Assembly (NCBI GenBank): GCA_951406725.2
Contig: OX597818.1
Location: forward strand, 90,644,001-90,708,000
Direction of reading: 5' to 3'
Length of the DNA: 64,000 bases
DNA from: Octopus vulgaris
Lineage: Eukaryota
Position 1 is the stretch's first letter, and each line of letters opens with the position of its first letter. Shown here one piece after another: positions 901 to 59,185 of the stretch. The translations under genes and the position numbers were made by a program. A model generated the notes under the pieces. It saw nothing but the letters and a program-made list of their open reading frames with translations. It searched no databases and had not been told where the DNA came from.

Positions 901-1664
901 GTTATAATATTATTATGGATTTCTGTTAAATATATTCGCAATGTATGCTTAATACGTATCATTTTCTGAAAAACAAAATGTCTAGATAGGTTTTCATTCA
1001 AAAGCTATTAGAATTTGAAATAAAGAAGAAATGACGTTACACAGAATAATGAAAACATGACAATGCTGTTGCCACAGTGTGCAAAAACCTGAGAAAAGTT
1101 TTATCAAAATCGATTCGCAGAAAACCGAGAAATCCTAAATGTCACTCCTAAGCTATTACCGTGATTCTGGTTGCATATATACATACATACATACATACAT
1201 CCATACATACATACATACATATGTATATATGTATATATATATGTATATATGTACATATATATATATATATATATATAGAACGAAACCGGTTGAACGATCA
1301 CACTTGTTCTGCTGATAGACTGAATGTAAAGATATTTCTTTACGTTTGCCTGTTGCAACCAATTACGATCCCAGTAACATACAACATGGTAAATTTATAG
1401 TTTTAAAAATGTGCTACATACCGTTTCAATGCTGAATTAATTGGCTTTGCTGCCAGCAATATGCTATTTAAGTATGTCATGATTTCCGATTTAGCATACT
1501 TTTAAATGTAGAGAATGGATATTGAGTGTATCCTAGGGCGAATAGTGGATTCTGATGAGCGTTCTACATAGCGTCGAAACTAGTTGGATCGTATAAATGC
1601 TAGAAATTATGAGAAGCCACAGAATTAATCTAAAACTGCGGTCAACGTGAAATGAAGCAAATGG

Positions 1665-1785
1665 AGCAACGTGAAACGAAGTCTTTTGCTTAAAGACACA
1701 ATGGGTAACCCAATCTGGGAATCGAATCCATGACCTAGCAATCGTGAGTGCAACAGCCTAGCCATTAGACCACTCTCCTTCACTA
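1665..1785 (-). mobile_element. tRNA-derived SINE fragment
   Basis: Minus strand has A-box-like GTGGTCTAATGG, B-box-like GATTCGATTCCC and the ttgtgtcttt-agcaaaa-cttc-tttcacgttgctcca core shared with the copy at 32664. Confidence 0.65.
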
Positions 1786-1959
1786 CACACACACGCACGC
1801 ACATACACACACACACGCGCGCTCACACACATACATATACATATATATATATATATATATATATATATACACATATACATATACATACATACATATATAT
1901 ATATATATATATATATATATATATAAAGCAGGGTGTTTAGAAAAATATGTGCCTCAATT

Positions 1960-2690
1960 TTTTAATGGTTTTCAGGGTTTTGAATTATCACAAAAATATA
2001 CAAAATTAAATAGAGGAAATTGTAAACCTGGCAAATGAATTGAATCTGAACGTGTCGGCAAATGACGTAGATGAGTTGCTTCAATCCAATAGTGTCGAAC
2101 GCATCAACAAAGAGCTTATTGAAGTGCAAGAATATTGCAACAATAGAAGGGGATAAGGATACTGTCGATGAAACACCAGTTAATGTATTCACGTTGAAAG
2201 GATACGCAGAAGCATTTCGATCTTTGGAGCCTTGGAAAATTTTCAAGCACAAGATCCAAATTTTGATCGAAGTAGAAATAATTTCTGCTACCATCACATA
2301 TGCTTCTGCGTTTTTAGAGAGAGAATAATAGCTTCTTATAAGCAAAAAAGAAATCTAAAGTCCGTCTATGAGTGCTTGTGAGTCGGAGATCGTGTCTACA
2401 AGTGATGGTGTGAACGAATCTAGTGCGAGTGAACGTGAATCAGAAAATGATTATAATAATAATATTTTTTATTATAATTGATCTTGATATACTTTTATTT
2501 TATATAAAATATTCTGTACATTCTATTCTTGTTTTATTGCAAGTTATTTACGAATATTATAAATTTTAATTGGAATGAATTACGATTTCTAAATATGCTA
2601 TTATGGGAAATTATTGCTCTTCTCTACGAGTTTTCCCTTTACGAGTGGTCGCTGGGAACGAATTAGCCCGTATATTGAGGCATTTCTGTA
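1960..2690 (+). mobile_element. pogo/Tigger-like transposon 3' remnant
   Basis: Broken translation NLANELNLNVSANDVDELLQS...ELIEVQE resembles a Tigger transposase C-terminus; ends in a Tigger-style terminus ...ttacgagtggtcgctgggaacgaattagcccgtatattgaggcatttctg-TA. Confidence 0.55.
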
Positions 2691-54816: not shown

Positions 54817-56518
54817 AAATAATTATTACCTTTGTATGGTATTTATTCACATGCTGGCCACTTGATAAGATCGATATTTAAATATCGATATTATCCTTAT
54901 ATATAAAATATATATATATATATATATATATATATATATAAACACATACATACATATATCTATATCTATCTCTCCATCTATACATATATATATATATATA
55001 TATATATATATATATATATATATATACATATACATATATATATACGTCATCATTTATCTACCTAATTTATGTACCTATCAACACACACACATATACAAAT
55101 ACACACACGCACACACATAACGGCCTCAATAACGCTAATAAAAATAACAAGGTAAAAGCTATTATTTTTCATTTACTTCGAAACCTGCTATTAAATCGTG
55201 GTTTTGGGCGTGTTGGCTGCTATTTCTAGCATGTAAAAATTACCTGTTAAAGTGTAGTCTTCTTCTGTGTTTAAATGTACACTATTTTAACTTATTATTA
55301 TTATTATTATTATTATTATTATTATTATTATTATTATTATTATTATTATTATTATATATGTATATATGCATATATATGCATATATATATATATACATATA
55401 AATATATATATGTATATATACATATATATATATATATATATATGTGTGTGTGTGTGTGTGTGTATGTGTGTGTATAAAGAGAGCGAGAGAATTTATAATA
55501 AAGGAGAATAAAGGAGAATCTATATCCACTTAATTACTTCTTTTCGTTTCTACACCTACACATGTTTCTTCGGTAATTAACTATTGCGGCCAACAAAATT
55601 TGCATCTTTATGTCCACTTATTGTTAGGTGCCACTTCTTCAAGAAGGAATCAATCAAACTGGCTAAATGTTTTAGACACTCACGGGGGTTAGGCGGCATC
55701 AATAACCGGTACATGCGACTACGGTATCCACTTGGTTTCTGTATCCCTACCAACTATAATTTAGAAACACACACGCACACACACGCATATATTCATAAAT
55801 ATATACATAAATACACACACAAACACACACACACACACATATATAAATATATGTGTATAAAATAAAAGAAGGAAAATGCACAAGGTTTACATAGTTTTAA
55901 TATATTTTAAATGTAAGTGTATTGTGGTTGTCGACCAGTTTCTCTTTCGCAATCATGATATGAAATTATTATACTATCGTATTTTCTTGAGAATAATTTA
56001 GTCCACGTCCTTGTATGAGGTTTTTGAATAAATCAAATAGAAAAATCTAGGGGAGGTAATTGGTGATAGTTATTACTTCAGACAAGGGAAGTATTTGCTT
56101 ACGTTTGGAGTGGGATAAATTAACCTAGAAGCTAAAGTAGTGAGATGAAATATGTAGTGATGGATATGTGATCATGAGTTAAGACTAAATTTAGTTATGC
56201 GTTCATATTTAGGTGTCTTCTGTATTTTTCGATAAATGGATTTTCTTTATTTAAACTTCCTTGTACAGAAATTCTTTCTTTGCACTGCTAGATGGAGAAA
56301 ACTGAGAAATTTGTTTGGCCATTCCCTGCACATCTCTCTGTGTGTTCACTCAAAGGTATCTGTCTTATACATTAGGAAACGGATCGGTTCCTTTTGTAGT
56401 GTGACATATTTTTGGTCCTATATAGTTGTGCCCACAACCTAATTTAAAGTTAAGTGAACACATAGAAAGAGTTTTCTACAACAACATGAATTAAATTCTT
56501 CTTAAGAAAATACGAAAT

Positions 56519-57395
56519 TATTGGGTTATCCCATAAATGACGCGGTTCTTTCAAATGCATGAAATAAAGTCGTTGGGGGCACAGGATAAACTACCTGCAT
56601 CAGCTTGCTATAAAAGCAGGTAGTAATTTTACTTTGTCCTTAACCTTATTACGAGTTTTGAAGAGTGCACCTCTATTTTAACAGTTATATTTTCAAAGCT
56701 ATAATGGAAGTAACAAAGGAGCATATTCGGCATATTTTGCTTTATGAGTTCAATAAAGGCAACAACGCAGCAGAAAGTGCGAGGAATATCTATGTAGTAT
56801 ACGGCAATTGGACAATAAGCTCAAGCCAGTGTCAACGGTGGTTCCAGAAATTCTGAGCCGGAAACTATAGCCTAGAAGACGAGCCTCGTCCTGGAAGATC
56901 TGTAGAGCTCGGCGAAGGCATCCTGCAAAACTTGGTGGAAGAAAATCCGATAGTAAATGTTGAGGGACAAATAGAAAAGCTTGGGATTGGTAATTTAATC
57001 AGTCATTCAAGTCAGCACTAGAAAAGAATCCGACCATCTTTTCAAGACGAAAGGTATTCCTCCACTAGGATACTGCTCGGCCACATAAAACGAGGATGAC
57101 ATTCCAAATGCCGGAGCAGTTTGAATGGGAAATGATGCCCCACCTACCATATTCGCCGGATATTACCTCATCTGACTATCATTTATTCCGCGGTCTTAAA
57201 ATAATCTGGACAGAACAAATATGAATTCGGAAGAGGAGTTTAGTACATTACCTGAGAAGAATTTTGGAAGAGGGGCCTTGCAGTCTAGCAGATACATGGA
57301 AGAGCATTGTAGAAAATGAAGGAGAGTATATTTTAGATGAAGAAAGAACTTTGTTTAAATTTTGGAAAATAAAAGAAGTATTTAAGAAATCCCCA
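56519..57395 (+). mobile_element. mariner (DD34D) transposon, internally deleted pseudogene
   Basis: TA-ttgggttatcccataa terminus; MEVTKEHIRHILLYEFNKG...QRWFQKF*AGNYSLEDEPRPGR, DTARPH, HLPYSPDITSSDYHLFRGL. Confidence 0.92.
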
Positions 57396-59185
57396 CTACA
57401 ATCATTTCAATGTGATGATTAGCGAAAGCGAAACCGTTCAACAACTACAATACTCTTTCATTTAAAATATATAAAAACTTTGTAAACTGTGTGCGTTTTC
57501 GTTTTTTTTATTTTATATACATATATTTTTTGCATTAAATGGGGGATAATTAAAACATATATATATGTGTGTGTGTGTGTGTGTGTGTATGTATATGTAT
57601 ATATAGGTATATATATTCTATATCCATATATGTTATATATAAAGTTAATCCAAACATGAAAAAGAAAGAGAAAACACAACAACGCGGGGACGTGGAACAA
57701 GTATAGTGTTATTGGACGCTCAGAGAAGGAAAGAAAGAAGAAGGACTTAATGTTACGAGCGGAGCTCTTCGTCAGAAACCTAGAAAATGAAAGATCCAAG
57801 GATATATGGATAGATATACATATATATTTACATACATCTATATAAGGTGAAAATATATGCATATATATATGTGTGTGTGTGTGTGTGTGTGTCTGTGTGT
57901 GTGTGTGTGTGCGTGTGTGAATGTATGCATGTAGATTATATGTGTTTGAGTATGTTTATATATATGAGAATAAGGACATCAATAATATGACGGACGACAA
58001 AATAAAAAATGAAGTGATATTTGGGTATTCGTTAGACGTTCGAAGTGAAATGAGAAAGAGGTATGCTTTGACGTTTCCAGCTTCAGCACTTTATCAGAAA
58101 ATTTAAGCTGACAAAAAAGTGTACTAAAAATAACGGAATTACTGGGGAAATGTATTGTAGTCAGAGCCATTTGAGTGTGATTGAGTGCGCTACTCAATAG
58201 CGGTCATCTCCTTCTCCAGCTTGGATCAATATGGTTATACTGCCTAAAGTCCAGCAGCACCTGAGATCGTAGCGGCATGGACGAAAATGAACGAGTAACT
58301 GCTACTGCCCATGCTGCACCTACCTTTTGTACATTTGAATATGGTGCATGATGATAACCTCTACCTGCAATACGCTGTAAGAAATCCTCTTCGTTGAAAA
58401 ATCTTTTCTTACTAAGATACTACTCACTAGTCTTTTGCTTTCTTAGACTCACCAACTAGGCGAAGAACAGCGGATATTGGTTAGTCCAAGCGTATCAAAA
58501 ATCACTATCTAGACCCCTTCTAGACAGATATGCCAATAACAATTTCATTCTGATTCCAAATCATATCGAGGTTAACCTTGTTTATCAATATTTTGGGAAC
58601 GCTAAAATATAATACTAATTAAGTACTGGAATAGATGTGATCAATCGTTAAATTCTCTATCGAGATTTCTTGCTCTATTTCCCTTTTAAGAAGTATTATA
58701 GCTCATTGTGCTCTCATGTGATTTTCCCAAAATTTTAACATGATGAACTCTATTCCACGCTAGAATCTAAAAGAGAAATTTTAAAACGCTAATGTTTGTT
58801 TGAGTAACAGAGGAAATAAGGAAAATAAAACTATTGCATAAAATTTGTATGCTTCATCTTTTATCTTTTATTTATTTCAGTACTTAGAGTGCAACCATAC
58901 TGGAGCATAGATATATAAGTAATACATACACAACAGGCTTCTTTCAGTTTCCGTCTGCCAAATCCACTCACAGTCTTTGGTCGCCCTGACGTTATAGCAG
59001 AAGACGCTTGTCCAAGGTTCGACGTGGTGGAAATGAAGCCGGAACTTTGAGGTAGGGAAGCAAACTTCTTACCACACAGCTATCCCTTTGCTTTCATACT
59101 TTCGGGGTCGATAAAGTAAATAAAAATTTCCCAAATCTGAAGTCTTGTACCTAAAGTAGGGAAGAAAATTTTATTGTCAATATTA

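What the first reader, a model, noticed from the sequence alone, without database searches (positions are those of the whole stretch)
1547..58101. Overall system: diverse hammerhead-bearing, microsatellite-targeting fold-back retroelements
At least seven hammerhead or hammerhead-remnant motifs of different sequence (1552, 27535, 34850, 48884, 51928, 57752, 58070; weaker at 4823, 50069, 50917) and about seven unrelated fold-back elements occur in 64 kb. Most lie in or near (TA)n tracts, alongside decayed PLE endonuclease ORFs. Inference: a large cephalopod radiation of PLE-dependent non-autonomous ribozyme elements whose inverted ends seed dsRNA hairpins in introns, possibly feeding ADAR editing. 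The PLE-hammerhead link is established; the density, enlarged stem II variants and fold-back link may not be described.
Basis: inference. Interest (0 to 1): 0.75.

Follow-up and report, generated by a model that had tools for sequence, protein, structure and literature searches.

The report
Octopus Penelope ends with hammerhead ribozymes
The hammerhead-shaped motifs and mirror-image repeats here are mostly cut-off ends of Penelope-type jumping genes and of short gene-less repeats that likely ride on them, a known arrangement that is very dense in this octopus-like genome and often carries an unusually long ribozyme arm, while nothing found here links it to RNA editing.

Summary
Partly confirmed; mostly a known system. 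Of the ten listed motifs, one is an intact type I hammerhead (52006, minus strand) and three are decayed copies of families whose other copies are intact (27535, 34850, 57752). 4823 is a non-canonical motif in a Neptune-type Penelope (PLE) end. The other five score within shuffle noise. Seven of ten fold-backs belong to PLE or hammerhead families. I found one PLE endonuclease remnant, not several. In 1.2 Mb sampled elsewhere, 29 motif clusters (2.4 hits in shuffles) are enriched near fold-backs and (TA)n: roughly 60,000 genome-wide, so the window is ordinary for its genome. The 52006 copy is a 602-nt ORF-less retrozyme-like unit. The PLE–hammerhead link, (TA)n bias, inverted copies and tails are published, including one octopus PLE. 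Not found in my searches: 34–88-nt domain II arms in about nine families, and a count showing that 23 of 27 fold-backs have the tail on only one arm, which suggests both target strands were primed. No ADAR support. The scan noted similar elements earlier in another genome.

The parts
51732..52160 (-). 5'-truncated copy (unit positions 174-602) of a 602-nt ORF-less retrozyme-like unit (family A), inserted in (TA)n, without tail
   Evidence: top copies 94-99% identical; 70 exact copies of a 26-nt hammerhead segment, control 0
51922..52012 (-). Intact type I hammerhead: 6-bp stem I, 60-nt domain II, palindromic short stem III; predicted cut between 51928 and 51927
27140..27918 (+). Old family B element in an intron (start approximate), ending in fold-back 27816-27918 inside TA tracts
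27527..27614 (+). Decayed type I hammerhead with 53-nt domain II (family majority: 11-bp stem II, intact core); this copy has stem I and stem III mismatches
34788..34926 (-). Fold-back stump of an abundant minimal-hammerhead family; remnant at about 34846-34882 lacks C3 and has a broken GAAA
   Evidence: 13 of 120 sampled stretches
57645..57802 (-). Decayed copy of an abundant minimal-hammerhead family (extra nucleotide after A9, 1-bp stem III)
   Evidence: 20 of 120 sampled stretches
4628..5075 (.). Head-to-head pair of 3' ends of a Neptune-type PLE (190-bp arms, tail on right arm only); hammerhead-shaped motif with non-canonical core at the centre
55853..56365 (-). 3' end of an old PLE with endonuclease C-terminus remnant (56198-56365) and decayed 3' UTR
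57397..57520 (+). Inverted partner arm of that PLE end, with a decayed hammerhead-like motif near 57413; a mariner-like remnant lies between the arms
43617..43831 (.). Fold-back stump of a family whose longer copies carry a hammerhead-type core with about 48-nt domain II
   Evidence: core seen in L039, L153, L164
54619..54904 (.). Fold-back stump (tail on right arm only) of a family whose longer copies carry a hammerhead variant
62081..62188 (.). Fold-back stump of a hammerhead family (8 of 120 sampled stretches); motif layout like Hydra-clade hammerheads in the Craig et al. supplement
28871..29030 (.). Decayed fold-back containing a possible U3-A8 hammerhead remnant at 28975 (tentative, noise band)
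50415..50698 (.). Fold-back of a ~210-nt repeat with no hammerhead found (unassigned; also at 5097-5303 and 6251-6456)
20662..20819 (.). 41-bp inverted arms around a microsatellite (unassigned)
1552..1587 (+). Unconfirmed hammerhead-like remnant: cores present, no stem I, no relative found
48884..48909 (-). Possible old remnant: cores present, stems I and III lost, one weak relative
10499..41304 (+). Host gene: GST-fold gene with six coding exons (about 10499, 16684, 22953, 28353, 37427, 41141); named S-crystallin from recalled motifs

Best explanation
These motifs and fold-backs are scattered, mostly decayed insertions from many families of Penelope-like retroelements and of short ORF-less units that likely borrow the Penelope enzyme. 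Inferred mechanism: the PLE endonuclease nicks AT-rich DNA such as (TA)n on both strands, and the reverse transcriptase copies the RNA from its 3' region starting at either of two internal sites, which define the 'tail'. Most cDNAs stop early, so only the 3' end with the hammerhead is inserted. When both nicked strands are extended, one from each start site, the two truncated cDNAs join head to head and give a fold-back with a tail on one arm. The ORF-less 583/602-nt units are likely transcribed as multimers that the hammerheads (probably as dimers) cut to unit length, possibly circularised, which would explain their more-than-unit and tandem insertions. Shown: sequence, architecture, PLE ORF linkage for three families, associations. 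Inferred: cleavage, circles, trans-mobilisation, dual priming.
For: Fold-back 4628-5016 is the 3' end of a family whose longer copies carry a GIY-YIG endonuclease (Pfam PF01541, E 4e-6). A long-domain-II family sits 286 nt after an endonuclease remnant, shared over about 440 nt by two loci. Family A shows partial tandems, inverted 5' copies and a ~107-nt tail, with no PLE ORF attached in 35 loci (34 distinct; L102 repeats L002). Sister family A2 forms 583-nt tandem arrays and has 268 exact 26-mer copies. Core intact in 59 of 63 ungapped A/A2 copies; core variation 0.018 against 0.083 elsewhere; one stem II pair changes on both sides (G-C 26, A-U 14 of 40 distinct rows). Genome sample: 38 hits in 29 clusters against 2.4 shuffled hits; 11 of 29 near a fold-back (2.7-4.2 expected) and 21 of 29 near (TA)6 (8-9 expected). 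Tail on exactly one arm in 23 of 27 classifiable fold-backs, p 1.6e-4 against a 50% null. In L201, L202 and L223 neither arm is contained in the other. Literature: PMC4209133, PMC8557442, PMC3846280, PMC11167929, PMC7229834.
Against: No cleavage, transcript or circle was shown. No autonomous partner was found for family A/A2. Only 33 of 129 sampled fold-backs could be tied to a hammerhead or PLE family with my small library; 20 were inverted pairs of a common SINE-like repeat and the rest stayed unassigned. One thriving PLE family has a non-canonical core in 14 of 14 copies, so the ribozyme is not required everywhere. Four of 27 fold-backs broke the tail rule and 7 more were ambiguous. The stem II covariation is one event between subfamilies. 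5' ends do not cluster at the predicted cut site.
Confidence: 0.86

Rival explanations
1. Fold-backs arise by self-priming: one cDNA or an antisense template folds back and is copied, as proposed for rotifer Penelope, rather than by priming of both target strands.
For: PMC3846280 (passages) interprets palindromic head-to-head junctions this way. Several fold-backs here have symmetric centres (4628-5016, L077), and 5' junctions cluster near an internal hairpin of family A.
Against: In L201, L202 and L223 each arm has sequence the other lacks, so neither can be a copy of the other. The purified Anolis PLE protein cleaves and extends both strands and has two start sites (PMC11167929).
Confidence: 0.25
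2. All short hammerhead elements are just truncated ends of autonomous PLEs; there are no independent non-autonomous elements.
For: True for at least three families. For the 57752, 34850 and 62081 families shared sequence stops within about 200 nt upstream, or at the inverted arm, in the sample, which fits either reading.
Against: A, A2 and the 359-nt L036 unit occur as complete head-to-tail units with no ORF.
Confidence: 0.1
3. The fold-backs matter as intronic dsRNA that feeds ADAR editing.
For: About 107 fold-backs per Mb, some with near-perfect 190-bp arms. Any that are transcribed would be plausible ADAR substrates (general knowledge).
Against: Only 4 of 10 lie between coding exons of the gene found. 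Singleton substitutions in A and A2 copies show no sense-strand A>G excess (14 vs 34 T>C; 8 vs 4, p 0.08). At least 20 of 129 sampled fold-backs come from a SINE-like repeat, so dsRNA supply is not PLE-specific.
Confidence: 0.25
4. The motifs are chance matches and the fold-backs are MITEs or assembly artefacts.
For: Five of ten listed motifs are in the noise band; two fold-backs (50497, 20662) are unassigned and one has short inverted ends.
Against: 38 hits against 2.4; all block-order hits but two are type I (20 against 0 in 3 shuffles); endonuclease linkage; variable centres with fixed outer ends; diverged arms (68-97% identity).
Confidence: 0.03

Closest known systems
Endonuclease-bearing Penelope-like elements (Neptune and Hydra clades), including Hydra-1_Obim of Octopus bimaculoides (PMC8557442 text passages, section 11 and supplement; PMC3846280 passages)
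   Same: 3' hammerhead, 5' truncation, partial tandems (pLTR), inverted 5' copy, tail at one end, (TA)n preference. Hydra-1_Obim is listed with a canonical hammerhead and (TA)n target.
   Different: Many more families and copies here. Tails of about 45-110 nt against the 30-40 nt described. One Neptune-type family has a non-canonical core.
Minimal PLE hammerheads (Cervera and de la Pena 2014, PMC4209133, parts 1-2 of 4 read)
   Same: Extra nucleotide after A9, U3-A8 core variant, tiny palindromic stem III, high family diversity, mostly single truncated copies, pairs on opposite strands 100-700 bp apart.
   Different: Helix II there is 7-8 bp. Here domain II reaches 34-88 nt in about nine families. 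Similar enlarged domains appear only in two spike-moss PLEs flagged as deviant in the PMC8557442 supplement.
Non-LTR retrozymes (PMC7229834 passages; bioRxiv 10.64898/2026.07.22.740005 part 1 and passages)
   Same: ORF-less tandem units with one type I hammerhead each, monomers to multimers, proposed PLE dependence.
   Different: Units of 583-602 nt are longer than the ~300-nt norm (the 359-nt L036 unit is typical). They show PLE-type inversion, tail and (TA)n targeting, which I did not see stated for retrozymes in the passages read. Circular RNA not shown here.
PAc Poseidon PLE in vitro (Frangieh et al. 2024, PMC11167929, parts 1-2 of 4 read)
   Same: AT-rich cleavage, both strands cleaved and extended, two internal start sites defining the tail, hammerhead not needed for insertion.
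   Different: The parts read do not connect the two start sites to the two arms of inverted insertions; that link is inferred here from genomic counts.

Membership tests
Type I hammerhead ribozyme (52006 motif) | CUGANGA, GAAA and UH core in type I order | tested here: met
   intact in 59 of 63 A/A2 copies
Type I hammerhead ribozyme (52006 motif) | Stems I, II and III pair, with covariation | tested here: met
   stem I 36-39 of 40 paired, stem II base 38-40 of 40, one double change (one event)
Type I hammerhead ribozyme (52006 motif) | Rfam RF00163 gathering score | tested here: not met
   21.6 bits against 34; the model also found 0 in 12 loci holding descriptor hits, so this reflects model bias
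Type I hammerhead ribozyme (52006 motif) | Site-specific self-cleavage | not testable with these tools
   needs an in vitro assay
Type I hammerhead ribozyme (4823 motif) | Canonical catalytic core | tested here: not met
   14 of 14 copies lack a canonical CUGANGA; stems conserved
Penelope-like element (4628-5075 family) | C-terminal GIY-YIG endonuclease after an RT-thumb region, with a Cys-rich linker | tested here: met
   the Neptune label rests on the linker motif as described in PMC8557442, no tree built
Penelope-like element (4628-5075 family) | Full RT domain that groups with PLEs | not tested
   only 5'-truncated copies were fetched
Penelope-like element (insertion signature) | 5' truncation, partial tandem, inverted 5' copy, optional tail | tested here: met
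Penelope-like element (insertion signature) | (TA)n / AT-rich target | tested here: met
Non-LTR retrozyme (family A/A2) | Short ORF-less unit with one type I hammerhead, in tandem repeats | tested here: met
Non-LTR retrozyme (family A/A2) | Transcribed and accumulates as unit-length circular RNA | tested here: inconclusive
   only contigs of runs guessed to be RNA
Non-LTR retrozyme (family A/A2) | Identified autonomous PLE partner | tested here: inconclusive
   none attached in fetched loci; no genome-wide partner search
Non-circularly permuted hammerheads (SGC/CSG/GCS) | Blocks in non-circular order | tested here: not met
   0 in window; 2 in 1.2 Mb against 0-2 shuffled; split-core forms would be missed

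The most novel reading that the evidence does not exclude
Octopus carries one of the densest known loads of hammerhead ribozymes (about 60,000 intact-looking loci), invisible to Rfam thresholds. About a fifth belong to a recurrent long-arm class (34-88-nt domain II, nine families) that is catalytically active. The one-tail-per-fold-back rule shows that Penelope elements insert by priming both target strands at their two internal start sites, which would explain how PLE inverted ends form and why the genome holds on the order of 10^5 PLE-made hairpins.
Probability: 0.4. Interest if true: 0.65.

Novelty: new variant of a known kind. Interest (0 to 1): 0.42.

Why it matters
It gives a natural data set for an open question named in PMC8557442: how PLEs make tandem and inverted structures. 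Young octopus families (95-99% identical) with thousands of insertions make the dual-priming model testable by counting and in vitro. It also shows that standard RNA annotation misses most of these motifs: Rfam's threshold found none in 12 loci holding descriptor hits, the giant squid genome paper lists 235, and an octopus repeat paper does not mention hammerheads in its main text. The long-arm variants are easy to assay. The core biology is already published, and the editing link is unsupported.

Tried and rejected
Whole-window Rfam scan: the 150 of 258 rows shown were microsatellite matches to miRNA and similar models, with no hammerhead. Region 48750-51100 gave no hammerhead at E up to 10. 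The 2.9-kb spacing at C4:31.21 Mb looked like pLTR-ORF-pLTR but is a local duplication. An iterative tblastn for PLE ORFs drifted into a SINE-like repeat; those rows were discarded and only 9 of 120 sampled stretches were kept as PLE ORF remnants. In the fold-back library test the 20-member cluster matched only through a SINE-like fragment in my family B probe and was removed, taking 53 to 33. Idea that long domain II holds an intron donor site: a GTAAG motif is in 5 of 8 long-arm families looked at, noticed after the fact; no matching splice joint appeared in contigs, which cannot show absence. RNA: no RNA holder listed on record; contigs of guessed-RNA runs cover the unit but give no strand, ends, level or editing. 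One search used a misregistered structure and was replaced; one search failed and was rerun. Rewired hammerheads: none in the window. Strand depletion in introns could not be tested (no annotation; only 2 motifs in introns). Lunse et al. on PLE hammerhead variants was not held and may already describe some variants.
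Full report
Setting. The window is G000:C5:90644001-90708000 in a 2.8-Gb genome. It is rich in microsatellites and holds one gene on the + strand with six coding exons from about 10.5 to 41.3 kb and GST N- and C-terminal domains. I call it S-crystallin from recalled motifs, which with the repeat content points to an octopus.

The listed motifs. A strict type I descriptor finds one complete hammerhead, at 52006 on the minus strand, against about 0.1 per shuffled window. 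Rfam matches it weakly because of a 58-nt insert. A relaxed score separates four of the ten motifs from noise (52006, 27535, 57775, 34882) and leaves 1552, 48909, 50069, 50917 and 58070 in the noise band. Relatives settle the three decayed ones. The 27535 family has a majority-intact core and an 11-bp stem II in 12 aligned copies. The 34850 and 57752 families occur in 13 and 20 of 120 sampled 10-kb stretches with intact cores in other copies. 1552 and 58070 found only themselves in the genome and 48884 one weak relative; these searches miss old or common sequence, so remnants are not excluded.

The intact element. 51732-52160 is a 5'-truncated copy of a 602-nt unit (family A) inside a TA tract. 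Across 35 loci (34 distinct) the unit appears as single truncated copies, partial tandems, inverted 5' copies and copies with a ~107-nt tail, and no PLE ORF is attached. A sister family (A2, about 80-89% identical to A, 98% among its top copies) forms 583-nt tandem arrays. Exact 26-nt segments number 70 and 268 genome-wide, with 0 for the reversed controls. The core is intact in 59 of 63 ungapped copies and varies less than the rest; stem II has one double change between subfamilies, and the 60-nt domain II pairs as an irregular hairpin. The stem III segment is a palindrome that can pair with a second copy, as described for dimeric PLE hammerheads (PMC4209133). A second ORF-less unit of 359 nt, with seven hammerheads and an inversion, turned up by chance in L036. 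These meet the sequence definition of non-LTR retrozymes (PMC7229834; bioRxiv 10.64898/2026.07.22.740005).

The fold-backs. 4628-5016 consists of two 3' ends of a PLE joined head to head. Longer copies run into an endonuclease ORF that matches Pfam GIY-YIG. Its hammerhead-shaped motif keeps its stems but lacks a canonical core in 14 of 14 copies, in line with the finding that a PLE inserts without ribozyme cleavage in vitro (PMC11167929). 55853-57520 is an older pair of the same kind and holds the only endonuclease remnant I found in the window. Fold-backs at 27816, 34788, 43617, 54637 and 62081 belong to families whose longer copies carry hammerhead-type cores. 28871 is tentative, and 50497 and 20662 are unassigned. 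So 7 of 10 are tied to PLE or hammerhead families.

Genome-wide test. I fetched 120 stretches of 10 kb at round coordinates on 29 large contigs; this is even, not strictly random, sampling. The descriptor gave 38 hits in 29 clusters, against 2.4 hits in 12 shuffles and 2 in the reversed sequence. That is about 22 clusters per Mb, or roughly 60,000 genome-wide (about 40,000-90,000 from Poisson error alone). The window's one intact motif in 64 kb is ordinary. Fold-backs number 129 in the sample (107 per Mb; window 8 by the same script). Hammerhead clusters lie near fold-backs in 11 of 29 cases (2.7 or 4.2 expected) and near (TA)6 in 21 of 29 (8-9 expected); 63 of 129 fold-backs touch (TA)6 against 27 expected. 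Only 33 of 129 fold-backs could be assigned to hammerhead or PLE families with my small library, and 20 are inverted pairs of a SINE-like repeat. Published counts are 9,000 for Xenopus tropicalis, about 5,000 for mussel and 126,247 for axolotl.

Long domain II. Six credible clusters of the 29 have a domain II of 34-78 nt (a seventh looks like a false hit). With other fetched loci, about nine families have 34-88 nt, and those folded form extended hairpins. One such family lies 286 nt downstream of an endonuclease remnant, so the long arm is not limited to non-autonomous units. PMC4209133 reports helix II of 7-8 bp. The PMC8557442 supplement lists two spike-moss PLEs with similarly enlarged domains as deviant. 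Searches found no description of this as a recurrent animal class, but Lunse et al. was not available.

How fold-backs form. In four families, 23 of 27 classifiable inverted insertions carry the tail on exactly one arm (p 1.6e-4 against 50%); 7 more were ambiguous and one edge case was left out. Loci were top search matches, and ends were called from BLAST coordinates. The tail on one inverted end is already described (PMC3846280; PMC8557442), where self-priming was proposed. In L201, L202 and L223 each arm has sequence the other lacks, so both were templated from RNA. Since a PLE protein cleaves and extends both strands and starts at two sites that bound the tail, I infer that one strand is primed at each site.

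ADAR. Four of ten fold-backs lie between the gene's coding exons; a 5' non-coding exon or other transcripts were not mapped. Inserted A and A2 copies show no sense-strand A>G excess. No run on record as RNA was listed, and contigs cannot test editing. The idea is plausible but has no support here. A search for it in print returned only general editing papers in the 15 rows listed.

What is known. PMC8557442 describes tandem and inverted PLE insertions, tails and (TA)n bias, and its supplement lists Hydra-1_Obim from Octopus bimaculoides with a canonical hammerhead. PMC4209133 describes the minimal variants and opposite-strand pairs. The giant squid paper counts 235 Rfam hammerheads. An Octopus vulgaris repeat paper has 31 recent PLE families and no mention of hammerheads in its main text. 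Searches found no paper devoted to cephalopod hammerheads or retrozymes. Papers were seen as follows: PMC4209133 and PMC11167929, parts 1-2 of 4; PMC8557442, passages, section 11 and parts of the supplement; the bioRxiv preprint, part 1 of 5 and passages, supplement not seen; PMC3846280, PMC7229834, PMC6765202, PMC6962438, PMC13282606 and PMC10085705, passages only.

Verdict. The system is real and is a known kind: PLE ends plus retrozyme-like riders. The frequent long arm, the genome-wide density and the quantified tail rule are modest additions.

Noticed in passing
window 10499-41304 (+): Six-exon GST-fold gene with a Ser/Met-rich insert exon at about 28353-28464; looks like a cephalopod S-crystallin (name recalled).
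   Followed up: partly
L036:2100-4760 (G000:C1, 20.00 Mb): Young 359-nt tandem unit with seven identical canonical type I hammerheads, two units inverted, inside (TA)n: a typical non-LTR retrozyme with a PLE-type inversion.
   Followed up: partly
L120:8730-9710 (about 10 kb upstream of the window): Inverted insertion of the A2 retrozyme-like family with two hammerheads.
   Followed up: yes
window 4760-4880; L087-L100: A young Neptune-type PLE family keeps a hammerhead-shaped fold with a non-canonical core in all 14 copies; it can be read as a U4 deletion or as an A3-U8 core with one extra base. Five of 8 top copies end exactly at the motif's 5' edge (partly a result of the query).
   Followed up: partly
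families A, B, L031, L039, L144: A splice-donor-like GTAAG lies inside the long domain II in 5 of 8 long-arm families; no spliced form was seen in contigs.
   Followed up: partly
window 56730-57360 (+), 398-766 (+), 46836-47600 (+): Decayed Tc1/mariner-like transposase remnants (Pfam DDE_3 and HTH_Tnp_Tc3_2 for the last two; the first by recalled motif).
   Followed up: partly
window 5097-6136 and 6251-7280: Local duplication of about 1 kb at 92-97% identity.
   Followed up: no
window 12423-12970, 36490-37021, 59927-60462: Three copies of a ~540-nt repeat flanked by (ATT)n/(AAT)n tracts, two orientations; may target trinucleotide repeats.
   Followed up: no
window 23506-23979 (+), 33787-34065 (+), 39362-40838 (+): LINE-like 3' remnants (weak zf-RVT match for the first; others by appearance only).
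   Followed up: no
L101 (G000:C4:31.21 Mb): 2.9-kb tandem duplication that includes a family A copy and mimics a pLTR-ORF-pLTR spacing.
   Followed up: yes
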